A stretch of 28,932 nucleotides of DNA from positions 1-28,932 of IMG/VR virus record IMGVR_UViG_3300021791_000007; one strand, given 5' to 3'. This document shows positions 752 through 26,221 of this stretch, piece by piece. The position numbers and the translations under genes are program-made. Numbering within the stretch: position 1 is the stretch's first letter; every line of letters begins with the position of its first letter. Below the pieces are notes generated by a model. That model made no database searches and was not told where the DNA came from. It worked only from the letters and a program-made list of their open reading frames with translations. The DNA comes from a virus (Duplodnaviria; Caudoviricetes).

Positions 752-1047
752 ACCGTTCCCCCTTTGTTGAAGTGAATGTCATAGAGCTTATCGATCAAGC
801 GACCCGTTTCCGTCTGTCCCGTAGCCCCAGAGTAGTAATTAATGCTGAGTCGTTGGAGTCGAAAAATGGCTGACTCGATCTCATCGAAAAGCCACGTCTC
901 TAGCCCCAACACTCCGGCTTCTAATTCGTCCCTGATGATCGGGTGGACGGGATCTTCCCCCTCGTATGTTTTGTTTCGGTACTCATCCCACCCAGCATCG
1001 TTATCCTTGATCAACTGTTCGTGAAGTTTCTTATATTTTCCAGTCAT
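748..1047 (-). CDS. hypothetical phage protein (99 aa, MTGKYKKLHEQ...)
   Basis: Start re-assigned to the ATG at 1047, which overlaps the helicase stop (ATGA) and follows GGAG. The longer 1149 start lies inside the helicase. Confidence 0.75.
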   Translation of the reverse strand: MTGKYKKLHEQLIKDNDAGWDEYRNKTYEGEDPVHPIIRDELEAGVLGLETWLFDEIESAIFRLQRLSINYYSGATGQTETGRLIDKLYDIHFNKGGTV

Positions 1048-2852
1048 TCCATTTCTCCCATGTAAGCAGTGTTGTATACGGCATCGTCTATCTGACGCTT
1101 GTACTTCCGAAGCATCTTGAATGCCGCGCGTTGTTGTTTCGGAGACCAACTCGCAGACTCCGCGAGCGAGTGACCGAATTCGGAATCGGACCCATTGAAC
1201 CCGACACCATTCTCGAACCTTGCGTGATCCGAGTCCGCAGCGACGAGACCACTGATAGCCACTCGGAGTGCTTCTACTACTGGCTCCGGTAGCGGCTCAA
1301 CCTTCTCGACCGCTTCGACTCCGAGAGATGTCGCAATCTCTTCAATCGTGATCGCCTGACTGACGTCATCATCGAGAGCCGCATCCAGGACGCGCTGCTT
1401 TTCGACCAGGACTTCAGTCATTCGTGCATCGATTGATCCATCGATCACCAGGTGCTGAACCAGGACCGAATCGGTTTGCCCAATTCTGTGGCATCGATCT
1501 TCAGCCTGGGACACGTTGCCGGGAACCCAGTCGAGTTCTGCGAACAGGACGTGGCTTGCAGCCGTGAGGGTGATCCCCACGCCGGCAGCACCAATGGTCC
1601 CGATGAACACCTGGGCGTCACCGTTCTGGAACGCATCGACAGCCCCCTGGCGTTCCTCGGTCGAACTGTCACCCGTGAGGGTTACGACCCGTTGCTCGCA
1701 CCCCTCAGCAATACCGGCGACCACGTCTTTATGGTGTGCCATTACGACCACGGGATGGTCGATGGTGTTGAGGTGCTCGACGATCTCAGGAATCTTCGCA
1801 ACCGCCATGAGATGGCGAACCCGCGAGAGTTCCTGGAACAGCACCTGGGGTGACGTCACTCGTTCCGCCGCCTCTTCGAGTGCAGCGAACTCCGCATCTA
1901 GCTGCGCCTCGAATGAATCGCCAGGAAGCACGATCACTTGGCGTTGCTTTGGAGGCAGCTCTTTCAGCACGTCAGACTTGAGGCGCCGAACCATGATCGA
2001 TTCACGCAACCGCCGCTGTAGCTCTCCGAGATTCGAGGAGCCGGAAAAGTCCCAGCCCCAACGACCCTTGTGAGCGTCGGCATATCGTCGGGCGAACTTA
2101 AAGAAGTTCCCGAAGTTGGTCGGATCAAGGTAACCCGCTATGGGCTGCAACTCGATGGGACGGTTCGTGATCGGAGTCCCCGTCAGCATGAGCCGACGCA
2201 GTCCCTTGATCTTGGTCGCCACTTTGGTGCGTTGCGCCTTGGGATTCTTGGCGTAGTGAGCCTCATCCATGATGACCAGCCCCCAGGTGCGACCCAACAG
2301 CGCTTCCGAATGCTTCGTCAGCACGTCGTAATTGATAATCACAACGTCCGGGTCAGAAGGCATCGGTTCGCCGCCGCCGTTCACGATATCGATTCGACGG
2401 GGGACCACTAGCCATTTCTCAAGTTCACGTTTCCAGTTCAGCTTGAGAGATGCGGGACACACGATCAAAACAGTTTCGGGCGGAGAAACATTCATCACCC
2501 CAATTGCCTGGATCGTTTTACCCAAACCCATTTCGTCACCGAACAAGGTAGCTGGTCGACTCATGGCATAGGCAATACCGCCCCGCTGATACGGGAGGTA
2601 CGCCAACCCCTGGGGTACTGGAATGTCGATGTCAGAATCAACTGCCTTCGACTCTTCCATCGCCTTGACGCTGTCGATCCAGTGGCAAACTTCCCACACG
2701 TTGCCGGTCTTCCGAACCGAGTACCCAGCAGCTTTGACGGCTTCTTTGTCAGCCCTCCAGATCTGCCAGAACTCCTCGTTCGGTTCTGCGGTTGCGAGCT
2801 TCTTCCCGGATTGTGTCTCCGTTGGCTCGCTCCAGTTTAGTTTCAGTTCCAT
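1044..2852 (-). CDS. SNF2/SWI2-family (HepA/SMARCAL1-like) DNA helicase/translocase
   Basis: Motifs YQxxG, DEMGLGKT (Walker A), VCPASLKLNW, DEAH (Walker B), LTGTPITN, GVGITLTAAS, QAEDRCHRIGQ; SD AGAGG 6 nt before the ATG. Confidence 0.95.
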   Translation of the reverse strand: MELKLNWSEPTETQSGKKLATAEPNEEFWQIWRADKEAVKAAGYSVRKTGNVWEVCHWIDSVKAMEESKAVDSDIDIPVPQGLAYLPYQRGGIAYAMSRPATLFGDEMGLGKTIQAIGVMNVSPPETVLIVCPASLKLNWKRELEKWLVVPRRIDIVNGGGEPMPSDPDVVIINYDVLTKHSEALLGRTWGLVIMDEAHYAKNPKAQRTKVATKIKGLRRLMLTGTPITNRPIELQPIAGYLDPTNFGNFFKFARRYADAHKGRWGWDFSGSSNLGELQRRLRESIMVRRLKSDVLKELPPKQRQVIVLPGDSFEAQLDAEFAALEEAAERVTSPQVLFQELSRVRHLMAVAKIPEIVEHLNTIDHPVVVMAHHKDVVAGIAEGCEQRVVTLTGDSSTEERQGAVDAFQNGDAQVFIGTIGAAGVGITLTAASHVLFAELDWVPGNVSQAEDRCHRIGQTDSVLVQHLVIDGSIDARMTEVLVEKQRVLDAALDDDVSQAITIEEIATSLGVEAVEKVEPLPEPVVEALRVAISGLVAADSDHARFENGVGFNGSDSEFGHSLAESASWSPKQQRAAFKMLRKYKRQIDDAVYNTAYMGEME

Positions 2853-2869
2853 TTTTTTCCTCTTGGTTT

Positions 2870-2923
2870 TCCTAGACGCCTCTCGGCGTTTCGACTCGTG
2901 ACCATCGAGTCTCGTCAGTAGGA
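2870..2923 (-). ncRNA. type I hammerhead ribozyme (HH1)
   Basis: Minus strand reads UCCUA-CUGACGA-GACUCG[AUGGUCA]CGAGUC-GAAA-CGCC[GAGA]GGCG-UC^UAGGA. It has the full CUGANGA/GAAA/GUC core and three perfect stems. Predicted cut is between 2875 and 2874. Confidence 0.93.
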
Positions 2924-2924
2924 T

Positions 2925-3242
2925 CTAGACGTCCTTCGCAAAAGTGCCGTGTAGATACATGGGGCGTTCGTTGCCCTGGTCATCGAAACGGCGGTTCTTA
3001 ACAGTCGCGACCCAATCCGAATCGTTGCCAGGAAGCTCACCGAACCCGGAGACGATCATCCCTTGATACCACTCGGTGCAAAATCGAGCTGCCAATTTCT
3101 TGGCTTGGTCGTGGGTGTCTTGCGCGAAATCGACAGACTCCGTGATCGAACGTTTTTCACCGTACCAGACCTCACCAAACGCCTTAATCCTCGCGCCGTG
3201 ATGGTCCGTAGCCTTGAGGTATCTGATTTGAATTACTTGCAT
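2925..3242 (-). CDS. hypothetical phage early protein (105 aa), flanked by the two ribozymes
   Basis: ORF with AAGGA SD; the N-terminal I.xRYLxATxxxGARIKA motif resembles small phage early proteins. Confidence 0.85.
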   Translation of the reverse strand: MQVIQIRYLKATDHHGARIKAFGEVWYGEKRSITESVDFAQDTHDQAKKLAARFCTEWYQGMIVSGFGELPGNDSDWVATVKNRRFDDQGNERPMYLHGTFAKDV

Positions 3243-3259
3243 GAACTTTTCCTTTTTTC

Positions 3260-3294
3260 CATTTAGGTTTCCTAGACATTTAGGTTTCCTAGAC
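3260..3294. repeat. 17-bp perfect tandem duplication (CATTTAGGTTTCCTAGA x2) containing the HH2 cleavage site
   Basis: Copies at 3260-3276 and 3277-3293 are identical. Confidence 0.95.
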
Positions 3295-3338
3295 GCCTTG
3301 CGGCGTTTCGACCCGCACCAGGGGTCTCCTCAGTAGGA
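3287..3338 (-). ncRNA. type I hammerhead ribozyme (HH2)
   Basis: Minus strand reads UCCUA-CUGAGGA-GACCC[CUGGUGC]GGGUC-GAAA-CGCC[GCAA]GGCG-UC^UAGGA. Relative to HH1 there is a compensatory U-A to C-G change in stem II, the GNRA loop is kept, and the only core change is at N7. Predicted cut is between 3292 and 3291. Confidence 0.93.
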
Positions 3339-3446
3339 TTGCGTTTCCCGCTTCGACAAACGCCGTTGCTGCTTCTCTCGAACCCGCTTCAGTCGCTTCT
3401 CCCACTTGCGAGAGAGAGCCGCGACGTCTTTTCGTACTTCTTTCAT
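3330..3446 (-). CDS. small basic protein (38 aa, MKEVRKDVAALSRKWEKRLKRVREKQQRRLSKRETQSY)
   Basis: ATG at 3446 overlaps the upstream stop (ATGA) with a strong SD GGAGGTGA; its TGA lies within the HH2 core. Confidence 0.7.
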   Translation of the reverse strand: MKEVRKDVAALSRKWEKRLKRVREKQQRRLSKRETQSY

Positions 3447-4249
3447 GCTGTCACCTCCATTGAATCGATGTGTGTTTCCCACTCGGGGACCGATAGCCGC
3501 TTGCCATCTATGGTCGGCTGGAAAAGACGCTTGCCCTCCGCCCATGAATCCAAGCGCCAGTGACCAGCACCGCACTTCCCATCGGACCGCACCGGCTTAC
3601 CCGCGTCCAGCCATGCCTGGTGCTTCGCGGGTGACGTTTCCTGGAACCGCGCCTCGACCAGCTTGATCGTCTGCCATGCGGCTGGGTCTTGGCGCATCGC
3701 GATGATCTCGTGCTTTTTCATGTACGGGCAGAACACGCACGATGACTTGGGCACCTCGATACCAAACCCGTCGAGATAATCGAGACAGTCCTGGCGCGTC
3801 ATATCGAGATCTTGCAGCGGGTAGCGGTAGGCAGCTTCGTCACCTTTAGGTGCGCTGAACCGTTCGCTTCGCTTGCCTTCGTTGGCTTCAAGACCAATGA
3901 GGTAGCAAATTTTTTCGCCGGGGAAATTATTACCAACCCATTTTTGAATCACGTCCCTCTTAAACCTATTCGAGCAAGCGTGTGCTCCAGCCCCAGGCAT
4001 AAGAGGTAGAGTTCCGTTACGAGTAACCCACTCAGTGATGGTCTCTTTCTCATTCCATACGACCGTGAACGGCAGCCCAGCGTCTTCGCAAAGCTCCGCG
4101 AAGAACTCGACGTTGTCGTAGGTGCCACTGGACTCAGCCCCGGTGTCGGAGAACACGACGTGATCGATACCCTGGTCATCACCCATAAGGTGCATGAGAA
4201 GGATGGTCGAACTGTCGACGCCTCCGCCGAAAGATAGGATCGTTTTCAT
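3443..4249 (-). CDS. phosphoadenosine phosphosulfate (PAPS) reductase-family / PP-loop adenine nucleotide alpha-hydrolase protein
   Basis: N-terminal SFGGGVDS PP-loop, FSDTGAE, CSxRFK, IGxxxxExxR, YPL and C-terminal PKSSCVFCP motifs. Confidence 0.85.
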   Translation of the reverse strand: MKTILSFGGGVDSSTILLMHLMGDDQGIDHVVFSDTGAESSGTYDNVEFFAELCEDAGLPFTVVWNEKETITEWVTRNGTLPLMPGAGAHACSNRFKRDVIQKWVGNNFPGEKICYLIGLEANEGKRSERFSAPKGDEAAYRYPLQDLDMTRQDCLDYLDGFGIEVPKSSCVFCPYMKKHEIIAMRQDPAAWQTIKLVEARFQETSPAKHQAWLDAGKPVRSDGKCGAGHWRLDSWAEGKRLFQPTIDGKRLSVPEWETHIDSMEVTA

Positions 4250-4938
4250 CGTTCCGCTCCGAAGGTTTCGAGGGCTAGATCGACGGTGGTTCGATTCCTC
4301 CTACCACTAGCCGTTGCGATAATGAATGGGTACTTGCGGTACGACTTCTTGAAGCCGATCAGCCTATATCCCTTCAGCACCCCAGCTTTGGCGACCTTGC
4401 TGGTGTCGAGATTGTGGCGTTGCGCTACCAATTTCAGTTCGTTTGACGCCTTCTCGAACAGCTCGTCGACAGTGGGGCGACCGCTTACCGGACCCTCGCC
4501 AATCTCGACAGAGTTTCTGACCAGATAGACACGTCGCACGCCAGCCCGTCGACCCGCCGCGCTATGCATCGGGACGTCTTGGCACTGATCGATGTAGCGA
4601 CCCTTGTGCAGCGTGAGAAGGTGACTGGTCGTGCTGACTAGGTACACGGCGTTGTGCAATGCCCATGCCCTGGACCATTGCTCGACCGTGTATTCGCCAG
4701 CGTATGAACCCTCGTCATTCGTCGAGTAGCACTCACCGACATCGGCACCGAGCAGCGCCAGGTGGTCGATTAGCTGAGGGGTCGAAACCGACCCTTTCCA
4801 GTTGTGTGCCTTGCCATGCATTTTTCGATGCTGATCGAAGATGAATTGCAGCGACTTGCCGGTGACCAGGTGAGCTGCGAATAGACCGCAGCAACCCATG
4901 TCGTATACCGGAATGCCGTTGATTTCCTGGTGTTCCAT
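4246..4938 (-). CDS. hypothetical protein with putative papain-like (C39-type) Cys-His-Asp domain plus a basic C-terminal domain (230 aa)
   Basis: Start re-assigned to ATG 4938 (after GAGGAAAAAGGA and downstream of the promoter); motifs CCGLFA...HLLTLHKGRYID. Confidence 0.6.
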   Translation of the reverse strand: MEHQEINGIPVYDMGCCGLFAAHLVTGKSLQFIFDQHRKMHGKAHNWKGSVSTPQLIDHLALLGADVGECYSTNDEGSYAGEYTVEQWSRAWALHNAVYLVSTTSHLLTLHKGRYIDQCQDVPMHSAAGRRAGVRRVYLVRNSVEIGEGPVSGRPTVDELFEKASNELKLVAQRHNLDTSKVAKAGVLKGYRLIGFKKSYRKYPFIIATASGRRNRTTVDLALETFGAER

Positions 4939-6357: not shown

Positions 6358-6773
6358 TGTTATCCCTGAATCGATTTGTTTATCACCCGTCAGGCACACT
6401 GGGGGTGATCGATATCTCGTTGGAGGGGGTCGAAGAAAGGTTCTGGACTATTGAGCGCCCCTGGCGTGACAATGAGCGCAATGTCAGTTGCATTCCAGAG
6501 GGAGAGTACCCGTTGGAATGGCGGGAAAGTCCGCGATTTGGGATGAGTTGGCACGTTGATGATGTACCCAGCCGTTCTCATATTCTTCTACATGTAGCGA
6601 ATTACCCAACGGACGTGCAGGGGTGCATCGGATTGGGCACGGATTTACTAGGGAATGGTATAGCGGTAGCGAAAAGCAGAGCAGCAATGGAGCGTTTCGA
6701 GGCAATAACGAGAGGCTACCATTGGAGTCTGAGAGTAAAGTTTGTGTCAGATGTGGCGCTGAGAAAAGTCTAG
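6357..6773 (+). CDS. DUF5675-family protein (putative cell-wall enzyme/endolysin candidate)
   Basis: LxR...TLG...TIERPWxDNxxNVSCIPxGxY...RSHILLHxANYxxDxxGCIxxG motif; GTG start after GGAG. Confidence 0.8.
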   Translation: MLSLNRFVYHPSGTLGVIDISLEGVEERFWTIERPWRDNERNVSCIPEGEYPLEWRESPRFGMSWHVDDVPSRSHILLHVANYPTDVQGCIGLGTDLLGNGIAVAKSRAAMERFEAITRGYHWSLRVKFVSDVALRKV

Positions 6774-7210
6774 AAGAATTTGTCATATCGAACGCCACCC
6801 CTGGTGGTAGGGCAAAGCATTGCAAGGTGTGCCACGCCAAGAGGGGGAGGGAGACGTGGAGGAAGAACGCGAGTTCGTCCTTAAAAAAATTTTTAACATA
6901 CAGGGTGACGAAAACCCGGAATTACACAGCGGTTAAAACCCGTGGTTTACCGCACACACTGGTGATGAAGGATGTGATGGAGATGTTTGAGGAGCAGAAT
7001 GGACTGTGTGCAATCTCTGGCATACCGATGACGCATGACTTAGATCACACAGACACAAACGTGAGCATTGATCGGATCGATCCTAATAAGGGGTACGTGA
7101 GGAGCAATGTTCGTTTAACAACGACCCGTGCAAATTTAATGCGGCACACAATGGATGACTCCATGCTGCGTTGGTGGGCAAGGGCAATTCTCTCTAAGGA
7201 GGATGAGTGA
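6722..7210 (+). CDS. HNH-type endonuclease with N-terminal Zn finger
   Basis: CxxC...CKxC finger followed by CAISG...SIDRIDPxKGYxxxNV...N; TTG start after GAGG (start uncertain). Confidence 0.8.
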   Translation: MESESKVCVRCGAEKSLEEFVISNATPGGRAKHCKVCHAKRGRETWRKNASSSLKKFLTYRVTKTRNYTAVKTRGLPHTLVMKDVMEMFEEQNGLCAISGIPMTHDLDHTDTNVSIDRIDPNKGYVRSNVRLTTTRANLMRHTMDDSMLRWWARAILSKEDE

Positions 7211-16744: not shown

Positions 16745-19700
16745 ATGGCTGTAAAGTTTTCCAACCTTGCTAGCTCAACGCTATCAAGTGGAATCAATGA
16801 TTCCGTTACTACGGTTCCGGTAGCGAGCGCGAGTTCCTTCCCCAGCTTGTCTGGGAGCGATTATTTCTATCTATCCCTTGGCATAGGGGCTGGATCAGAG
16901 GTCGTTAAGGTTACTGGGGTTTCTGGAACTAACCTCACTGTTGTCCGTGGTCAGGACGGAACGACTGCTGCCGCCTGGACTTCAGGAACCACGATTGCGC
17001 TGCGCGTAGTCGCAGCAGCCCTGGACGATATTAGTTCTCTCGCATCCACCGCCGCTGATACCGAATCAGTCAGCATTAGCGGCGACACGATGACCGGCGC
17101 ATTAAAGCTGCCGAATGGATCAGAGGGCGCACCTTCTTATGCTTTTTCTGGGCAGGCATCTTCCGGTATGTATCTACTGGGAACCAGCCAGCTTGGGTTA
17201 TCTGTATCTAGCTCGCGAAAGTTCCGCCTTCTTACAACGAGGGCATATTTCGACAATCTTAGTTCTGGTGTGTATGTGGGTGGACCGCTTGAGGCATCTG
17301 GCACTCTAACGGTTCCCACTATGAAGACCACCGCATCGGGTCAACATTACCTGCTTAATACAACCGGAGCAGGACAGAACGCCTACATAACCTATCAAGA
17401 TAACAGCGCCAATAAATGGGAGCACGGGAAGAACACGCTAGATAAGTTCTTCGTTTATAGCTACGCACTCGGGGATACGGTTCTCACGCTACAAAATGAT
17501 GGCAAGGTCGGTATTCGTCAGACCACCCCGACTGAAGCACTCCATATTAAAACGAGGGGCGCACCCGCAAGTATTAGATTGGAACAGTTCGACACATCCG
17601 GTGCGCCGGGTAATAACGACGTCATCGGGAGCATCGACTGGTCTATTAATGATGACGGCACCTTCTCTGGAGCCGACACGGTACGCGCCAGAATTCAGGC
17701 TGTAGTAGAGAACACCAGTTCGGGTACGGGACTGCGATTTTTTTCTGGGAACACAAGTGTCGCTACTCCTGTAGAACGAATGAGAATTATACCGGATGGC
17801 AAAGTAGGCATAGGAACTGCGAGTCCCTCAGGATTACTACACCTAGTTGATGGAGCAGGAACAGTACCCACACTAGGTGGTGGCACTAATTTCATTATCC
17901 AAAATAATGACACTACTAGTGATGTAGCCCGCCTTAATGTGATTGGTGGTGCAGCGGGTTATTCAACTTTACATTTTGGAGATGCAGCCGCTTATAACGT
18001 TGGCGGTGTGATCTACAATCACAGCACAAACACGATGACGCTTGATGCTGGTGGTACTACTGGTATAGCGATTGATTCCAGCGGTAGAGTTGGTATAGGG
18101 ATCACGGCTCCAGATTCTCACGTTAATTTACATATACAAGATTCTGCCTATGCTTTCTTAGCTTTAGAGGCTACTGCTTCAGGTGGGCGACAGTATGAGT
18201 TGTTTAGTTATGCTGCTGACGAAAGTTTTCATATTTATGATCGTAATGCTGACGCCTATCGATTAAGCATAGATGAAACAGGCAAGGTTGGTATAGGAAC
18301 TACGAGTCCAGCAGATGAGCTGGAATTAAAGGGGGATGGATACAGATTCAGGGTTAGTTCAGCGGATCAAATGATAGCTTCGCTGGGTAACTGGGGAAAT
18401 AGTGGTGCGGATATAGACGAAGGCTACTTAAGTTTATATTCGAGTGGAACGGAAGCCATTCGTATAGCCTCAAATGCTGGCTCTTATTTTAATGGCGGCA
18501 TCGTTTCTATAGGGCATACCGCCAGCATTACACAAGAGGTAGTTCAAAGCGGATCTACTATTTCGTCTTGGACGCCCGACCTTCAAGTAAATAAATCAGC
18601 AAATGGCGGTGTGGCGATATCGCAATGGAATACAGGCAATACTGCTTCAGCGAATTTATGGCTAACAAAATCTAGTAATGCCACGGTAGGAACGCATGGA
18701 AGTTTAGACACAGATGAAGCAATAGGAAGAATAATATTTAGTGCTTCTGATGGTTCTACTTTTACAAATAGTGCTTCTATAGAAGCCTTTGCTGATGCTG
18801 GTCAAGGCTCAAATGATACGCCGGGGCGTCTTGAATTTAAGACAACGGCGGATGGTACTGCTGCTCCAACAACCCGAATGACCATCGATCACGCGGGCGA
18901 CGTTTCTATGACGGTGGGAACGGGGAATACGGGCTTGTCGATGATCCCGTCAGCCGCCGGTTCAACCAGTATCATTCTTAATACCTTTGCAGATAATGCA
19001 GCAGGACGGAACTGGGCATTTCGTAATAGATACAACGCGCATGGTCTATTGGAGGTAATGCGCTCAACCTCGAATTCAGCCGCGCCTTTAACGCCGGTTA
19101 TGACGTTCTCTGGTTCTGACGGGACGGTTTCGATTCCCGGAGCCACTAATCTCCAAGGTGCAACCGACCAAACTGGAGTACTCCGCACCAATAGTACCGT
19201 TTCAATCTCTGGTGGATCGGGTTGGTTCGCTCCTTCCGCATCACTCCATGTCAGACAATCCAGCGCCGACGATAACGACACGGGTCTAATTGTCGAAACT
19301 ACGGATGACGGTGAGCGCACTCGTATCGTCCTGAAGAGTGGCAGTTCAGTTGGTGACGGTCTAATCTCGCTGAATTATTACGGTTTTTCGATGGGCTATG
19401 TTGGTGATGAACAAATCATCAACATCGGTCGAGGTAGTAAGTACGTCGGTATTGGTATGGGTAATACCCAACCAGCACACTTGCTTGATATCAAAGGGGC
19501 TTCTGGTACATCTCCTCTTCTACAAATTACGAATTCTGATACAGAAGATAACGACACTGGTCGTGAATCAACGATAAGGTTTTCAGGTTATCGATCCGGT
19601 GGCGAGGCGGTAATTAACGGTCAGATTACCGGAACCCATGACGGTAGTGCTGATGATGATAAAGGGATGCTTACGTTTTTCACCAATGCCGGTTCAGGTA

Positions 19701-22700
19701 TTGCTGAGAAATTCCGCATAGGGGCTGCTGGTCAACTAGGGGTAGGTGGGGCTAATTACGGGACTGACGGTCAAGTGCTAACGTCAACGGGCGCAACAAC
19801 CGCCCCTGCTTGGGAAGATGCCGGTGCTGCCAGCAACTATTGGACTCTATCCAGCGGCAACGTTTATAGATCCAGTGGCTTGGTTGGCATAGGGCTTTCG
19901 TCAGCACCAAAGACATTGCTACAGATTTCTGGCACACCCGTTACCACGGGTGGTGGTGATGTAGCGTCTGTATTAACCCTAATGAACACAGCCTCGGCTG
20001 CTGACGGTAACAAGGTTGGGATTACCTTTTCTACGAATAGTGGCGGTACAGCCAATGCCTTTATAACCGCTGAACAGGATGGCTCAAATCACGGGACACT
20101 GCATTTTGGTGGTTACGACGGTAATGCTAATAGAGCCACCGTATTAAGCATTGATGCTGGTGCAAACGTGGCAACATTTGCTGGGCAAATAATAGCTGAT
20201 GATAGTACTGACGCTGGCGCACCTGTTTACAGCTTTACTGGTGATGCTGACACAGGCTTTTTCCGCGAGGGTGCTAACACGATAGGGATATCGACAGGCG
20301 GCACCAGGCGCTGGTCAATTAGTGGCAGTTCAATGACCTCGCAGATCACAGGCGGGGCTAGGATTACTCAAGCAAACGGCAGTCCCGGCGCACCAAATTT
20401 TACTTTTAACGACGATTCCAACACCGGTATGTATCGAGTTGCTGCCGATAAGCTGGGCTTTACAACTGGCGGGACGTTCCGGGCTGTTATTGATGGCGAT
20501 GGAGACTTTGGTATAGGTACCGCGAGTCCAACATCTAGATTACACATTTATGAAGATGATTCCAGTTTTGGTAATACCCAATTACACATTGAAAATGACA
20601 AAACAGATGATGCGGCAGTCCTTAGAATTGAAGGTAAAAGAACTTCGCTCAACGATACCGCGCAAATTTTGTTTGCTAATAACGGAAGTTTGGGATCGGC
20701 AATTAAAGCCTATTCGGCGGGGCAAGATGGGGATCTTCGGTTCTACACGAGCGGGGCGAGTAGTGGGGACACCTTAAATGAAATGCTGCGCCTCGATAAT
20801 AACGGGCTTTTGTCATTTAAGGCGTCCGGTAACGCTCAAGGAATCAATTTCGAGCAAGGAAACTCGCGGATATATTTCGGCGGTATTAGGGCAATCGAGG
20901 GCAGCACAGCATCGAGCGGGAATCTGGAGCTAGGCGAGGGCTATTCTGGCAAGGTCCAGACGCATTCCGATGCTGGGTTCAATGTTGCCGATGGCTCGCT
21001 CCAGGTGGGCGGGACCGAGGTCATCTCATCGAGTCGGGCGGCTACTTTCGTCGGCATTAATTCCACCTCGGGCACCGTCCAATTCACAGATGGTGGTTCA
21101 ACCTTTGACTCGTCAAATGCTAATGGCTATCCGGTTTTCTCACAAACTAATGGCTCCGCTCAAATAGGGTTTGCGCGCGCCGGGGGTAGCACAGGACTGG
21201 GATACATTGGGGCGGATGTAAACAATGTCTTTGCGGTTTTCGACAGCAGTTTCGTCAAGCACTTCATCGTGACGCAAGGCGGAACGGTCAATATCCCAAC
21301 CGGCGCGCTCCAGATGGGCGGCACCCAAATCATCGACGCAAGCCGCAACATGTCGAACATGGGCAACATCACCGGGGCTTGGCTTTATACGGGAGGTATT
21401 ACAGCAACAGCCGCATCCACTTTAAGCACTGTGCTTATTAGTGGAGTTTCTAACTATACCGGCTTGGAAGTAAAAGGCGCAGGAGGGTCGCGACCTCAAG
21501 TTAAATTTTCTAACGTAAATGACGGCGTTATAGGTCAAATTTATGGAACAGAAGCGAATGCCTTGGTTATTGCAACAGGCACTGGTGGTGCTGCTGCTTT
21601 AACCCTGGACTCATCTCAACAGGCGACTTTTGGTAATCACATCGTATTGCCGACCGTCAGTTCAACCGCTGGACAACTTAGAGGAAACATCGGCGGCTTA
21701 GAGCTGCAGTCGAACAGATCCGGGGATATGGGCATCCTTGGCACGTTTAATAATGGTACGTTCGGCTTCCAGCTTTATGCTCACAGTACTGGGTATGGAT
21801 TTCTGGATGGCGTGTGGAGTTCTTGGGATATAAAGAAGGTGCCAGATGGGAACCTCTACCTCAACGATGACAACACTCATTACCTAAACCCCCCTTCGAC
21901 ATCGATAATGAATCGCATCGATGCGAACATTTATTACGATAAGGGGAACACTGGCTACTACGTCGACCCAGCGTCTACCTCGACCCTGTATCGAGTTCTC
22001 TTCAATGAACACCTAGTCGGGCAAACGGCTGGGGGTTACGTTCAAACCCAAGGGTCGAGCGGCAATCTTTGGGCTATTGGTTCAGGGGGAGGCACGTCTG
22101 CACCGGGGACGGCTTCGACAACGTTTGGCATTCATAACTACAACGGCAGTGCGTGGAGTAATCCTGTTGTAATTCTCAACAATGGAAATTTTCTAATCGG
22201 CGACGATGTTGACTCCACTTTCAGGCTTCACGTTCGGAAGAATGATGCAACACGCGCCAATATAGCCCGTTTTGAAAACAATACGAACGGTGGCGATTCG
22301 AAGGTAGTAATTGCAGCGCAAGCCAATCAGTCCGGTGATCCGTATTTGTATTTTGATGCGGGTGGACAGGACTTCGCGATTGGTGAGCTATGGACTAGCG
22401 GTGCAAATAAGATGACGATTGGCAAAGCCATCCCGTCTGCTTTTGGAGCCGGAGACGGCATTGTGATCGATCAGTCTGGCAACGTCGGTATAGGAACTAC
22501 GAGTCCCGCTTATCCAATCCATGTTGAAAGCTCTGTGGCTGGAGATTGGATGGGCAAGATTAAAAATACCCACGCCACGAACGGGAATGGATTATTAATA
22601 CACGCGGGGGACGATGCTTCTGTAAAAGCTCTACACGTTGGAAGCTATAATGGAACTGGTCAATACCTTGTCGTTCGTGGAGACGGCAACGTTGGTATAG

Positions 22701-25700
22701 GAACTGATGGTCCAGCTCAAAAATTTCATGTTGCAGCAGGCTATATCCATGCAGATGCAGGCTATGGAATAACTTGGGATAATACACATGAAAGGATAGA
22801 ACAAAGTGACGGCAAGTTAGAGTTCTTCACGAATAATGGAGAGGCAATGACCCTTAGTGGTTCTAATTTAGGTATAGGAACTACGAGTCCCGGTTATCCA
22901 ATCCATGTTGAAAGCTCTGTGGCTGGAGACTGGATGGGCAAGATTAAAAATACCCACGCAACGAATGGGTATGGATTATTAATACACGCAGGGGATGATG
23001 CTTCTGTAAAAGCTCTGAGCGTTGGAAACTATGCTGGAACTGGTGATTACCTTGTCGTTCGTGGGGATGGCAACGTTGGTATAGGAGCTACGAGTCCGGG
23101 GTATAAACTTCATGTTACAGGCACTATTGGTGTATTCACTGGAGGCGATGCCCTTCTTTATTTAGGTGAGGGTGAGAGTGGTGGGTCATATTCAAAAATT
23201 TATTGGAAATCCTCTGACGATACATTAAGGCTCGGCACACAAGCGGGTGGTGATACTGTTGTAATAAATGAATCGGGCAACGTTGGTATAGGAGCTACGA
23301 ATCCCGGTACAAAGTTGGATGTATCTACAGTCGCAAATGTGGCTGGAATTAGAGTTGTAGCACCAAATACAACTGGTCAATCTTATGGGGTAACCATTGC
23401 GGCTGGAAGCAACGCATCAGATTATGCTTTTAATATCAATAATGCGGCTGGAACTGGACTCGTTAGAGTTCGTGGGGATGGCAACGTTGGTATAGGGGAA
23501 ACTGCGCCTTGGGCAAAACTTCATGTTAACAAAGGGGGCGGGAGTGGTGTTAATGATGCGGATGATACCCTTTTATTAAGTGATAGTGATTACGTCAGCT
23601 TTATGATGGAACACTATAACGCGGCTTCTGGTAGTAGAAATGTAAGATTTAGAAATAATGCTGGTGTAGTTACTGTTGAACGAATGAATGATGCAGCGAC
23701 TACTCTCACATCAACTACGATGACAATCGATACACCAAATGGAAGGGTGCATGTGATTGGATCTGGAACCACAATCAATAATGCCAATACTGGGGAGCTT
23801 CAAATAGGAGCTGGTCTAGCTTCTGCCGGTTCAGCCGGTTCAGTTCAACGTTTAGCAATGCAACCCTATGCACATACTGGTGGTCCGTGGACATTTACTG
23901 CAAGAGATACATCTAGTAAGGCATATTTAGATATTGGATATGGAGCTGGACCTGACGTTACTTTCACCAGCGATGGCTCCGTTGGTATAAATGACACCAC
24001 TCCTGAATTTCCCTTAACTATTGGTATTACCAGTTCAACTACTCAACAAGTTGGGCTTGAAGTTACTCAAGCTACTAGTGGTAACGACGGTCGTATTCGA
24101 TTTAAGAATACGGCTGATAGTAATTATGTACGCATGGGGATGGAGTCAAACGGTACATTTTTTGTAGAGCCATACACGGGTTCGCAATACCTGAAAGTCT
24201 TAAAAATTACGAAAGTAGGGGTTATGACCCTTACGGGTAATGAATCCCATTTTTATAGAGGTAGTAATGATGTAGGCACGGGTCATGAAATGTATTGGAC
24301 TGGCTCAAACTACGCCGGTTCAATGATTGATTACGCAATGATAAAAAATAGCATTGTGTCACGCACTAATGGGGCTGAGTCTGCAGATTTAATATTCAAA
24401 GTTAAAAATGCTGGGTCTTTCACCCAGCCCATGACCATTAAATACGATGGCAACGTGGAGATGAGCGAAGGGCTGACGGTGGGCGATGGCTTAACCGTTA
24501 ACGGTGCCGGTGGTGTTGTTTATTACGAACAGGGGCAAGGCGCACCCGCCATTAATTCTGATAACACGGTTGGTGCCCTCGTCCTGAAAGACAAAGACAA
24601 CAACTGGGAGGGCACTCTCTATGCTACCAGTACGGAGTTTGGGTTCCTTAATGGAGAATGGGCGAGTTGGGACCAGCGCAAGGTAAAAGCTGGAAATCTC
24701 TACCTAAACAACAACAACAGCTACTACATGAACCCCGGCGTTACGTCGATCTTCAATGATCTGCGTGCCAACATTGTGTACGACCAGAACAATACGGCGT
24801 ATCACTCAGACCCCTCTGCTACGACTACGTTAAGCACTCTGAATGTGAATGCTACTGCTACTTTCAATTCCACGTTTACAATTTCTAATAGTGCCTCCGA
24901 CGTAAAAATCAGCCTGCAAGGAACGAATGATCCACTTATTCATTGGAAGGAGGGGACAACAGATCGTTTCTATATTCAATGGCGAGCGGGTTACAACGCC
25001 CCAATCTATGTTAATCAAGAAAGTAATACTCATGAGTTCTATGGAACGGGAGGTAGCACTGCCCTTAGATTTAAGTCTGATAATGAAACGATACGTGGCT
25101 ACGTCTACACCGATACTAGCGGCATGGGGTTCTTGGACAAGGACGGTCAATGGGCGTTCTACCACGTTCACGATCAGTACACGCGGTTCAGTGTAAATAA
25201 CGGTGGGCATTGCTATGCCTACTCCAGCTCATTCAGAGCGCCAATTTTTTATGATTCAGATAACACCGCTTACTATATAGATGGAGCGGGAACATCGGTC
25301 TTCAATACCCTTAGAGCCAACACCACGTTTGGTGTTAACACCACGTCCAGTACCCATGTATCGACAACCAAAATACAAGCAATCGCTAGTTCTGGGGCAC
25401 CCGCCACCGGTAGTACTACACAAGGTAATAGTGCGCTATGCCTCGAAGGGCAACCGGGGATTAGGCTGGACATTGGCTCCAACTATTCTTGGGGCAGTAC
25501 GCATTGGTTTCAGACAGGTAATAAGACTGATCTAAGTGCAAGGTATGGCATTTCGCTTAACCCAATGGGTGGCTCTGTAACTGTTGGCTTGGCAGCAACA
25601 CCACCCAGCACAAGTTCTTATCGTTTTTATGTTCAGAATTCTTCACATAACCAACCCGGTGCTCTTGTTGAAAGCACCCATGCTGGTCAAAGTGCTAGCG

Positions 25701-26221
25701 AACTTCTAACGCTCCGCTACGCGCCGGGAAGTCCAAACAATACTGCTGCAAAATATCTTACATGCTATGACGATGACAGTGAGGGAACCTTACACATCTA
25801 TTCAAATGGCAATGTGGTCAACACCAACGATTCGTATGGCGGGTTATCTGACCTCAAGCTAAAGCAGGATGTTGCTGATGCCAGCAGCCAATGGGATGAC
25901 GTTAAAGCTTTGCGGCTCCGTAAGTTCCGGTTTAAGCACGCCGTCGCGGAAGATCCAGATGCACCTTATATGCTGGGTCTTATTGCACAAGAAACAGAAT
26001 TAATCTCCCCTAACCTTGTTGTTGATACTGAAGACTTAGAGGACGTGGAGGTTGAGCTTGAAGACGGCTCGACAGAGATGAGGAGATTACCAAACGGCGA
26101 AACAACTAAAGAGTTGAAGTACAGTATCCTGCACACAAAGGCATTTGGAGCCTTGCAGGAGGCTATGGCGCGAATCGAAGAATTAGAAGCAAAAGTTGCT
26201 TCTTTAGAAGAGGCTAGTTAG
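16745..26221 (+). CDS. giant modular tail fibre (3158 aa) with C-terminal peptidase S74 intramolecular chaperone
   Basis: N-terminal anchor (EVVKVT...LTVVRGQDGT), many GNVGIG repeats, SDLKLKQD...FRFK...GLIAQE autocleavage domain from ~25847, terminal coiled coil. Confidence 0.92.
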   Translation: MAVKFSNLASSTLSSGINDSVTTVPVASASSFPSLSGSDYFYLSLGIGAGSEVVKVTGVSGTNLTVVRGQDGTTAAAWTSGTTIALRVVAAALDDISSLASTAADTESVSISGDTMTGALKLPNGSEGAPSYAFSGQASSGMYLLGTSQLGLSVSSSRKFRLLTTRAYFDNLSSGVYVGGPLEASGTLTVPTMKTTASGQHYLLNTTGAGQNAYITYQDNSANKWEHGKNTLDKFFVYSYALGDTVLTLQNDGKVGIRQTTPTEALHIKTRGAPASIRLEQFDTSGAPGNNDVIGSIDWSINDDGTFSGADTVRARIQAVVENTSSGTGLRFFSGNTSVATPVERMRIIPDGKVGIGTASPSGLLHLVDGAGTVPTLGGGTNFIIQNNDTTSDVARLNVIGGAAGYSTLHFGDAAAYNVGGVIYNHSTNTMTLDAGGTTGIAIDSSGRVGIGITAPDSHVNLHIQDSAYAFLALEATASGGRQYELFSYAADESFHIYDRNADAYRLSIDETGKVGIGTTSPADELELKGDGYRFRVSSADQMIASLGNWGNSGADIDEGYLSLYSSGTEAIRIASNAGSYFNGGIVSIGHTASITQEVVQSGSTISSWTPDLQVNKSANGGVAISQWNTGNTASANLWLTKSSNATVGTHGSLDTDEAIGRIIFSASDGSTFTNSASIEAFADAGQGSNDTPGRLEFKTTADGTAAPTTRMTIDHAGDVSMTVGTGNTGLSMIPSAAGSTSIILNTFADNAAGRNWAFRNRYNAHGLLEVMRSTSNSAAPLTPVMTFSGSDGTVSIPGATNLQGATDQTGVLRTNSTVSISGGSGWFAPSASLHVRQSSADDNDTGLIVETTDDGERTRIVLKSGSSVGDGLISLNYYGFSMGYVGDEQIINIGRGSKYVGIGMGNTQPAHLLDIKGASGTSPLLQITNSDTEDNDTGRESTIRFSGYRSGGEAVINGQITGTHDGSADDDKGMLTFFTNAGSGIAEKFRIGAAGQLGVGGANYGTDGQVLTSTGATTAPAWEDAGAASNYWTLSSGNVYRSSGLVGIGLSSAPKTLLQISGTPVTTGGGDVASVLTLMNTASAADGNKVGITFSTNSGGTANAFITAEQDGSNHGTLHFGGYDGNANRATVLSIDAGANVATFAGQIIADDSTDAGAPVYSFTGDADTGFFREGANTIGISTGGTRRWSISGSSMTSQITGGARITQANGSPGAPNFTFNDDSNTGMYRVAADKLGFTTGGTFRAVIDGDGDFGIGTASPTSRLHIYEDDSSFGNTQLHIENDKTDDAAVLRIEGKRTSLNDTAQILFANNGSLGSAIKAYSAGQDGDLRFYTSGASSGDTLNEMLRLDNNGLLSFKASGNAQGINFEQGNSRIYFGGIRAIEGSTASSGNLELGEGYSGKVQTHSDAGFNVADGSLQVGGTEVISSSRAATFVGINSTSGTVQFTDGGSTFDSSNANGYPVFSQTNGSAQIGFARAGGSTGLGYIGADVNNVFAVFDSSFVKHFIVTQGGTVNIPTGALQMGGTQIIDASRNMSNMGNITGAWLYTGGITATAASTLSTVLISGVSNYTGLEVKGAGGSRPQVKFSNVNDGVIGQIYGTEANALVIATGTGGAAALTLDSSQQATFGNHIVLPTVSSTAGQLRGNIGGLELQSNRSGDMGILGTFNNGTFGFQLYAHSTGYGFLDGVWSSWDIKKVPDGNLYLNDDNTHYLNPPSTSIMNRIDANIYYDKGNTGYYVDPASTSTLYRVLFNEHLVGQTAGGYVQTQGSSGNLWAIGSGGGTSAPGTASTTFGIHNYNGSAWSNPVVILNNGNFLIGDDVDSTFRLHVRKNDATRANIARFENNTNGGDSKVVIAAQANQSGDPYLYFDAGGQDFAIGELWTSGANKMTIGKAIPSAFGAGDGIVIDQSGNVGIGTTSPAYPIHVESSVAGDWMGKIKNTHATNGNGLLIHAGDDASVKALHVGSYNGTGQYLVVRGDGNVGIGTDGPAQKFHVAAGYIHADAGYGITWDNTHERIEQSDGKLEFFTNNGEAMTLSGSNLGIGTTSPGYPIHVESSVAGDWMGKIKNTHATNGYGLLIHAGDDASVKALSVGNYAGTGDYLVVRGDGNVGIGATSPGYKLHVTGTIGVFTGGDALLYLGEGESGGSYSKIYWKSSDDTLRLGTQAGGDTVVINESGNVGIGATNPGTKLDVSTVANVAGIRVVAPNTTGQSYGVTIAAGSNASDYAFNINNAAGTGLVRVRGDGNVGIGETAPWAKLHVNKGGGSGVNDADDTLLLSDSDYVSFMMEHYNAASGSRNVRFRNNAGVVTVERMNDAATTLTSTTMTIDTPNGRVHVIGSGTTINNANTGELQIGAGLASAGSAGSVQRLAMQPYAHTGGPWTFTARDTSSKAYLDIGYGAGPDVTFTSDGSVGINDTTPEFPLTIGITSSTTQQVGLEVTQATSGNDGRIRFKNTADSNYVRMGMESNGTFFVEPYTGSQYLKVLKITKVGVMTLTGNESHFYRGSNDVGTGHEMYWTGSNYAGSMIDYAMIKNSIVSRTNGAESADLIFKVKNAGSFTQPMTIKYDGNVEMSEGLTVGDGLTVNGAGGVVYYEQGQGAPAINSDNTVGALVLKDKDNNWEGTLYATSTEFGFLNGEWASWDQRKVKAGNLYLNNNNSYYMNPGVTSIFNDLRANIVYDQNNTAYHSDPSATTTLSTLNVNATATFNSTFTISNSASDVKISLQGTNDPLIHWKEGTTDRFYIQWRAGYNAPIYVNQESNTHEFYGTGGSTALRFKSDNETIRGYVYTDTSGMGFLDKDGQWAFYHVHDQYTRFSVNNGGHCYAYSSSFRAPIFYDSDNTAYYIDGAGTSVFNTLRANTTFGVNTTSSTHVSTTKIQAIASSGAPATGSTTQGNSALCLEGQPGIRLDIGSNYSWGSTHWFQTGNKTDLSARYGISLNPMGGSVTVGLAATPPSTSSYRFYVQNSSHNQPGALVESTHAGQSASELLTLRYAPGSPNNTAAKYLTCYDDDSEGTLHIYSNGNVVNTNDSYGGLSDLKLKQDVADASSQWDDVKALRLRKFRFKHAVAEDPDAPYMLGLIAQETELISPNLVVDTEDLEDVEVELEDGSTEMRRLPNGETTKELKYSILHTKAFGALQEAMARIEELEAKVASLEEAS
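22487..23089 (+). repeat. ~219-bp imperfect direct repeat inside the tail fibre (22487-22705 and 22871-23089)
   Basis: Both copies encode GIGTTSPxYPIHVESSVAGDWMGKIKNTHATNGxGLLIHAGDDASVKAL...YLVVRGDGNVGIG; offset 384 bp. Confidence 0.95.

What the first reader, a model, noticed from the sequence alone, without database searches (positions are those of the whole stretch)
2870..3338. Twin co-oriented hammerhead ribozymes bracketing one gene: a self-excising, potentially circularising 417-nt phage mRNA cassette
Seen: two complete type I hammerheads on the coding (minus) strand. Both have the canonical CUGANGA/GAAA/GUC core, identical stem I (UCCUA/UAGGA) and stem III. They differ only in structure-neutral ways (N7 C/G, GNRA loop GAGA/GCAA, a compensatory U-A/C-G pair in stem II), which argues that both are under selection. 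They flank exactly one ORF (2925..3242). Established: hammerhead cleavage leaves 5'-OH and 2',3'-cyclic phosphate ends, which RtcB-type ligases or the reverse reaction can join. Tandem hammerheads are how viroid-like RNAs and retrozymes make unit-length circles. Inference: double cleavage (3292^3291 and 2875^2874) releases a 417-nt RNA carrying RBS + ORF + most of HH1. Because stem I is shared, end-joining rebuilds a full hammerhead at the junction (…GGCGUC|UAGGAAACC…). This would be a DNA-phage-encoded monocistronic, possibly circular, mRNA cut out of the early transcript. Single hammerheads in phage intergenic regions are known; the paired gene-cassette arrangement is the part that merits study.
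Basis: partly seen in the sequence, partly recalled or inferred. Interest (0 to 1): 0.92.

Follow-up and report, generated by a model that had tools for sequence, protein, structure and literature searches.

The report
Two hammerhead ribozymes flanking phage gene
Two well-formed self-cutting RNA motifs (hammerhead ribozymes) sit on either side of one small gene of a marine phage and likely cut a long transcript into a single-gene message; this layout has been known in phages since 2011, and the proposed circular message is possible but untested.

Summary
Observation confirmed. Two co-oriented type I hammerheads (3339-3286 and 2924-2869, minus strand; Rfam Hammerhead_1 E 0.0015 and 0.0098, both under the gathering score) bracket a 105-codon ORF, 417 nt cut to cut.

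The layout is not new. Perreault et al. 2011 described hammerheads flanking single prophage genes with variable cargo, showed cleavage, proposed circles or splices, and did not detect them. It is common: 23 of 74 sampled hammerhead-bearing viral contigs have two or more co-oriented ribozymes. This scan has noted it on other phage DNA too.

The circle gets little specific support. 19 of 45 adjacent type I pairs cannot rebuild stem I at a circle junction. Compatibility shows no preference for direction or adjacency. The 417-nt circle folds like its shuffles (z +0.28). Cargo homologues have a hammerhead directly upstream in 11 of 60 loci and directly downstream in 0 of 60.

New details: a covarying loop II-tail pseudoknot, a stop codon inside the upstream core, and a 17-nt duplication at its cut site. 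Best reading: ribozyme punctuation of a likely early operon.

The parts
3286..3339 (-). Upstream type I hammerhead (HH-A). Predicted cut 3292^3291. N7=G; loop II can pair 3 bp with the tail behind stem I
   Evidence: Rfam Hammerhead_1 E 0.0015
2869..2924 (-). Downstream type I hammerhead (HH-B). Predicted cut 2875^2874. 6-bp stem II; 4-bp loop II-tail pseudoknot (UGGU/ACCA)
   Evidence: Rfam Hammerhead_1 E 0.0098
2925..3242 (-). Cargo ORF, 105 aa. Member of a family of about 78-aa phage proteins of unknown function (weak PHROG 3199 match), found in early regions of other phages
2875..3291 (-). Predicted 417-nt double-cleavage product: 49-nt leader, ORF, and the 5' part of HH-B
   Evidence: computed from the sequence; not observed as RNA
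3260..3294 (-). 17-nt tandem duplication (period 17, run of 18) starting at the GUC of HH-A. It repeats the stem I 3' arm and the tail
   Evidence: the only such case among 238 type I motifs; no indel listed in contigs of runs from studies P2, P3 and P4
3330..3446 (-). 38-aa basic ORF, start overlapping the stop of the PAPS-reductase-like gene. Its stop codon is the UGA of the HH-A core
   Evidence: same layout in 37 of 168 type I motifs
1044..2852 (-). SNF2-type helicase gene. Its start codon lies 22 nt after the HH-B cut
3443..4249 (-). PAPS-reductase-like gene upstream in the same leftward gene block
   Evidence: phrog_424, E 3e-32

Best explanation
The two hammerheads are intergenic spacers in a leftward, likely early gene block of a marine tailed phage, and they likely cut the polycistronic transcript in cis, which would release a linear single-gene RNA for the small cargo gene and a short-leader RNA for the helicase. 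Shown: the sequence, the predicted structure, the pseudoknot covariation in relatives, and the layout stop codon - ribozyme - start codon. Inferred: transcription, cleavage, and the benefit. Each cut would leave the downstream message with a 5'-OH and a short, fixed leader, and the upstream message with two 3' hairpins and a cyclic phosphate. Each gene's RNA would then get its own stability and translation rate whatever gene lies next to it, like a natural insulator in a region where small genes are swapped often. The twins share stem I most likely by common descent of a spacer whose stem I changes slowly.
For: Family-wide layout: an ATG-ORF starts within 40 nt of the cut in 167 of 230 type I motifs (25% at random positions). 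An upstream ORF stops within 20 nt of the core, or inside it, in 135 of 168 (9% at random). The window fits: stop 6 nt before HH-B, stop inside the HH-A core, starts 22 and 49 nt after the cuts (32 without the duplication). Arrays are common: of 74 contigs in a stem-I-unbiased sample, 23 have two or more and 12 have three or more co-oriented hammerheads. 28 of 49 close pairs enclose one dominant ORF, and these fall into 27 unrelated clusters. Mixed-type pairs occur (L001, L032, L048). Cargo homologues: hammerhead directly upstream in 11 of 60 loci, directly downstream in 0 of 60, so the 5' cut is the recurring feature. Pseudoknot of 4 bp or more in 63 of 163 motifs against 25.0 +/- 4.4 in tail permutations, with compensatory variants. 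Perreault 2011 showed cleavage of three such clusters in vitro and one in E. coli. An engineered 5' ribozyme insulator (RiboJ) raises mRNA about twofold (PMC6206723 passages).
Against: No cleavage or expression data exist for this locus. ViennaRNA, which cannot model the pseudoknot, gives low stem I probabilities: 0.17 and 0.12, about the lowest quartile of 234 motifs. HH-A has competing hairpins. The ribozymes are not tied to these genes: 0 of 80 helicase-relative loci (60-68% identity) have one, 48 of 60 cargo-homologue loci have none in the DNA held, and two cultured phages with the cargo gene have none. Stem I is shared within contigs more than stems II and III (0.71 vs 0.55 and 0.49; between contigs 0.35, 0.43, 0.55), which this model explains only through slow change of stem I, and that control rests on 14 non-independent pairs.
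Confidence: 0.68

Rival explanations
1. Selected circularisation: both ribozymes cut, the shared stem I brings the 5'-OH and cyclic-phosphate ends together, and the ribozyme or a host RtcB-type ligase joins them into a stable 417-nt circular mRNA.
For: The junction has full 5-bp stem I compatibility. 26 of 45 adjacent type I pairs are compatible at 4 bp or more, against 5.6% of pairs from different loci. Stem I is shared within contigs more than the other stems. Among non-identical adjacent pairs the circle junction pairs better in 14 and the splice junction in 7 (p 0.19). Hammerheads with tertiary contacts ligate far faster than minimal ones (PMC6155905 passage).
Against: 19 of 45 pairs, in 10 of 23 contigs, are incompatible through compensated changes. 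There is no adjacency or direction signal. Orthologous ribozymes in different contigs show the same stem I excess (0.84 vs 0.63 and 0.75, n=14). The circle has no special structure (-117.7 kcal/mol against shuffles -119.5 +/- 6.6). A rebuilt ribozyme would reopen the circle (established chemistry). 0 of 60 cargo-homologue loci are flanked on both sides. Perreault 2011 looked for circles and splices and found none (data not shown there).
Confidence: 0.1
2. Only HH-B is fully active. HH-A is an attenuated, translation-coupled or decaying copy, so the main cut frees the helicase message and the cargo stays attached to the upstream genes part of the time.
For: HH-A has the rare N7=G (5 of 238) with a competing hairpin, a 3-bp pseudoknot, and a tail that pairs with itself through the duplication. 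Its stem I probability falls to 0.004 with 40 nt of tail, against 0.055 for HH-B. A ribosome stopping on the core UGA would cover it (inference).
Against: All conserved core positions and all three stems of HH-A are intact, including a compensated stem II pair, and it has the better Rfam score. A stop codon in the core is common in the family (37 of 168). HH-B also scores low in the same folding model.
Confidence: 0.15
3. The repeats matter mainly at the DNA level: near-identical spacers act as crossover points through which small genes are gained and lost, and cleavage is tolerated rather than selected.
For: Cargo between paired ribozymes is almost always different (27 clusters among 28 units). 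Helicase relatives lack the unit. The two copies share 36 nt at 86% identity.
Against: Compensatory changes and the pseudoknot keep RNA structure rather than DNA identity. No joint, and so no cassette-less allele, was listed in four runs laid (contigs show presence, not absence).
Confidence: 0.07

Closest known systems
Clustered hammerhead ribozymes flanking single genes or short gene blocks in prophages (Perreault et al. 2011, PMC3088659; section 6 and passages read)
   Same: Several co-oriented hammerheads around one gene in phage DNA, variable cargo, pseudoknot as tertiary contact, proposed processing into single-gene mRNAs, circles and splices proposed as an alternative. The paper also notes a halovirus hammerhead 13 nt before an early helicase gene.
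   Different: Here a marine virus contig rather than a prophage of a cultured host. Both ribozymes are type I with identical stem I. The cargo family and the 17-nt duplication are particular to this locus. Nothing has been tested here.
Type I hammerhead ribozyme (Rfam RF00163 Hammerhead_1, clan CL00010)
   Same: Core, three stems, open stem I, GUC cut site.
   Different: Scores are below the family's gathering cut-off (29.5 and 27.1 vs 34). Stem III is longer than in the model consensus, and the tertiary contact is a loop II-tail pseudoknot.
Retrozymes and viroid-like circular RNAs (PMC4918200 and PMC7229834: search listing and start of abstract only; PMC6765202 passages; details otherwise recalled)
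   Same: Two same-sense hammerheads delimit a unit-length RNA with ligatable ends.
   Different: Here only the ~56-nt ribozyme is repeated, not the unit. The unit is an ordinary coding gene, its predicted circle is no more structured than shuffles, and no copies of the unit were seen elsewhere in the window.
RiboJ-type ribozyme insulators (engineered; PMC6206723 passages) and RNase III processing of T7-like early transcripts (recalled)
   Same: Cut a transcript to give a gene a fixed 5' leader independent of upstream context.
   Different: RiboJ is synthetic and is not this ribozyme. RNase III processing uses a host protein. These are analogies of function, not membership.

Membership tests
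Type I hammerhead ribozyme class | Conserved core CUGANGA, GAAA and UH cut triplet | tested here: met
   Both copies
Type I hammerhead ribozyme class | Stems II and III closed, stem I open, all pairable | tested here: met
   5/5/5 bp (HH-A) and 5/6/5 bp (HH-B); Rfam alignment
Type I hammerhead ribozyme class | Tertiary contact between loop II and the stem I side | tested here: met
   4-bp pseudoknot in HH-B, 3 bp in HH-A; family enrichment 63 of 163 vs 25.0 +/- 4.4; compensatory variants
Type I hammerhead ribozyme class | Self-cleavage at the triplet | not testable with these tools
   No assay; no RNA run listed
Rfam RF00163 as a curated family | Bit score at or above gathering score 34 | tested here: not met
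   29.5 and 27.1 bits. Filed under the ribozyme class, not as a curated RF00163 member
Clustered phage hammerheads (Perreault 2011) | Two or more co-oriented hammerheads flank one gene or a short gene block in phage DNA | tested here: met
   phage context from terminase, portal-like and major head genes
Clustered phage hammerheads (Perreault 2011) | Flanked gene varies between cases | tested here: met
   28 single-ORF units fall into 27 clusters; the window's cargo has no match among them
Clustered phage hammerheads (Perreault 2011) | All ribozymes of the cluster cleave the polycistronic RNA | not testable with these tools
   Shown for three other clusters in the paper, not here
Retrozymes / viroid-like circular RNAs | Unit repeated in tandem or bounded by long terminal repeats (recalled) | tested here: not met
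   Only a 36-nt stretch of the ribozyme is repeated
Retrozymes / viroid-like circular RNAs | Highly base-paired circular RNA (recalled) | tested here: not met
   Circular fold z +0.28 against 60 shuffles, 57% paired
Retrozymes / viroid-like circular RNAs | Circular RNA accumulates in cells | not testable with these tools
   No RNA holder listed

The most novel reading that the evidence does not exclude
Phage type I hammerhead arrays keep a genome-wide shared stem I so that cut ends are interchangeable, and this cassette is ligated (by the ribozyme or host RtcB) into a translatable circular mRNA: the first DNA-phage circular message made by design. The within-genome excess of stem I sharing (0.71 vs 0.35 between contigs) and the weak 14:7 lean towards the circle junction leave this open.
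Probability: 0.08. Interest if true: 0.8.

Novelty: new member of a known kind. Interest (0 to 1): 0.27.

Why it matters
What bacterial and phage self-cleaving ribozymes are for is still open (PMC6765202 section 13). This locus is a compact 600-nt test piece: two same-type ribozymes with compatible ends, so one construct can test cleavage, stabilisation or insulation, and circle formation. It is one of many such loci and its host is unknown, so it adds an example rather than a new system. The comparative results (fixed stop - ribozyme - start layout, pseudoknot covariation, about four in ten neighbouring pairs incompatible) lean towards linear processing.

Tried and rejected
RNA evidence: no RNA holder listed among 24 runs; this says nothing about expression. 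Four DNA runs laid on 2200-4300 listed no joints or indels; X2 and X3 are near-identical over the whole stretch and may be this DNA's source. A second laying, on runs with partial share, gave no result, so cassette-less strain variants are only partly checked.

Close relatives: none for the cargo by the word-index search, the viral scan or blastn against cultured phages; none for the PAPS-reductase-like gene. The metagenome pattern scan gave 2 short contigs, each with one ribozyme found.

One ribozyme with many target tags (lead from e1-6356029): rejected here. GTCTAG occurs 10 times against 9.95 expected, and the 10-mer occurs only at the two ribozymes and the duplication.

Cargo function: no Pfam family. 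The AlphaFold model is good (pLDDT 84.6), but Foldseek gave no match at E<=0.001 and the best VIA-align Z was 5.2, within background; inconclusive.

RtcB: none in this contig, which is estimated 55% complete; uninformative, and the host could supply it.

Folding z-scores of the motifs alone are weak (-0.6 to -2.1). Masking of the junction ribozyme in the circle could not be judged, because stem I is also improbable in the linear precursor in a model without pseudoknots. Promoter scan: 3 hits against 2.6 expected, so the -35/-10-like site at 5013-4985 is only a candidate.

Alignment A2 had one row (L342) with wrong coordinates and was not used for counts. The ORF count was confused by an out-of-frame ATG and was replaced.

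Literature: searches listed no paper showing a ribozyme-made circular mRNA of a DNA phage. Only listings and the papers named were seen, the library lacks most subscription papers, and Perreault's supplements and Figure 3 were not viewed.

Full report
Context. The window is a 28,932-base virus record, linear and estimated 55% complete. It has terminase, portal-like, major head and virion genes on the plus strand. A leftward block holds small unknown genes, a PAPS-reductase-like gene and an SNF2 helicase. The stretch is held by marine and seawater metagenome runs of 11 studies; none is on record as RNA.

Observation. Rfam gives two matches in the whole window at E up to 1, both Hammerhead_1: 3339-3286 (E 0.0015) and 2924-2869 (E 0.0098). 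Both are under the gathering score of 34. A structure-based finder I wrote recovers both and found none in 929,310 shuffled bases. The enclosed ORF is a real gene: 22 hits at E up to 0.001 including itself, of which about 16 are short full-domain relatives. It has look-alike clusters that are almost wholly viral and homologues upstream of the RNA polymerase gene in cultured Autographiviridae (two of three hits viewed). Its function is unknown.

First, loop II pairs with the tail behind stem I: 4 bp in HH-B, 3 bp in HH-A. Across 163 type I motifs with loops of 5 nt or more, 63 have a pairing of 4 bp or more, against 25.0 +/- 4.4 (maximum 38 of 300) when tails are permuted. Variants such as UGAU/AUCA and UGCU/AGCA occur. 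Relatedness among the motifs was not corrected for. Second, a 38-codon ORF ends on the UGA of the HH-A core, as in 37 of 168 motifs. Third, a 17-nt tandem duplication begins at the GUC of HH-A. It is the only one among 238 motifs, and no indel is listed in contigs of runs from three studies that cover it. With the rare N7=G (5 of 238) it gives HH-A competing hairpins, so the two copies may not be equally active.

Is the arrangement special? No. A pattern with this stem I matched 108 viral stretches. A pattern that leaves stem I free matched 131 in 6 of 64 parts of the collection, about 1,300 estimated in all. The first 80 loci of the latter collapse to 74 contigs: 68 have a hammerhead by my finder, 23 have two or more co-oriented and 12 have three or more (near-identical phages not merged). 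Of 49 adjacent pairs within 700 nt, 28 enclose one dominant ORF (window included), and these form 27 unrelated clusters. The ribozymes sit at gene borders: an ATG-ORF starts within 40 nt of the cut in 167 of 230 (control 25%), and a stop lies within 20 nt of the core or inside it in 135 of 168 (control 9%). Both search patterns required GTC, and the second also fixed part of stem III, so stem III figures are biased. Perreault et al. 2011 (section 6 read) report the same layout in prophages, with variable genes, cleavage of three clusters in vitro and one in E. coli, and circles or splices proposed but not detected. Two reviews (passages and one section read) treat processing of polycistronic phage RNA as the standing, unproven hypothesis.

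Testing the circle. For it: the window's junction is fully compatible; 26 of 45 adjacent type I pairs in the unbiased set are compatible at 4 bp or more, against 5.6% between loci; and stem I is shared within contigs more than stems II and III (0.71, 0.55, 0.49, against 0.35, 0.43, 0.55 between contigs). Against it: 19 of 45 pairs, in 10 of 23 contigs, are incompatible through compensated changes, and mixed-type pairs exist. The splice junction is as compatible (25 of 45), and so are non-adjacent pairs (24 of 48; p 0.53). The 14:7 lean to the circle junction among non-identical pairs is not significant (p 0.19). Ribozymes in front of homologous genes in different contigs also keep stem I best (0.84, 0.63, 0.75; 14 non-independent pairs), so slow change of stem I can account for the sharing. 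The predicted circle folds no better than shuffles (z +0.28). Of 60 loci with a cargo homologue, 11 have a hammerhead directly upstream (types I and II, several near-identical) and none directly downstream. None of 80 helicase-relative loci has one in the DNA held, and many show a promoter-like sequence in front of the helicase instead (by eye). A protein ligase would not need stem I pairing, so these tests lower the case for a selected circle without excluding circles.

Mechanism. The most likely reading (0.68) is cis-cleavage that punctuates a polycistronic, likely early transcript. It would give the cargo and the helicase short fixed 5'-OH leaders and give upstream messages hairpin-capped 3' ends, uncoupling genes in a region of frequent gene turnover. 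The chemistry of the ends is established knowledge. Expression, cleavage and benefit at this locus are inferred. Rivals: attenuated HH-A (0.15), selected circle (0.10), repeats that matter mainly for DNA recombination (0.07).

Verdict. A real, clean example of a known kind of system; interest 0.27. Earlier notes of this scan report the same layout and reading in other phage genomes. They are not independent evidence, and I had read the 2011 paper before opening them.

Noticed in passing
window 3279-3184 and 3262-3233, minus strand: The duplication leaves two extra AUGs in the cargo leader, each 7 nt after an AGGA like the cargo's own start. They open out-of-frame ORFs of 31 and 9 codons that overlap the cargo start and could compete for ribosomes.
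   Followed up: partly
L001 3052-3001 and 3360-3300; L032: A phage with a different gene context has a ribozyme nearly identical to HH-B paired with an upstream type III hammerhead around a different 78-80-aa gene.
   Followed up: yes
L129, L145-L147, L180-L181: Arrays of six or more type I hammerheads in one gene block. In L129 stem I is nearly uniform; in L145 and L180 neighbours mostly have incompatible stems I. A natural contrast for testing ligation.
   Followed up: partly
L333, L342-L346, L361, L364-L367: The cargo gene family has different hammerhead types (I and II) directly upstream in different phages, suggesting repeated recruitment of a 5' cut for this gene. L360 and L378 show hammerhead-like sequence by eye that my finder missed.
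   Followed up: partly
window 16745-26221, plus strand: A 3,158-aa ORF with many internal repeats, several about 207 nt apart, probably a long fibre protein.
   Followed up: no
L241-L320, just upstream of the helicase: Many helicase relatives share a promoter-like motif with a conserved ACACG element before the start codon (by eye); possibly an operator.
   Followed up: no
window 6623-7210, plus strand: Endonuclease VII/HNH-like gene between the small and large terminase genes.
   Followed up: no
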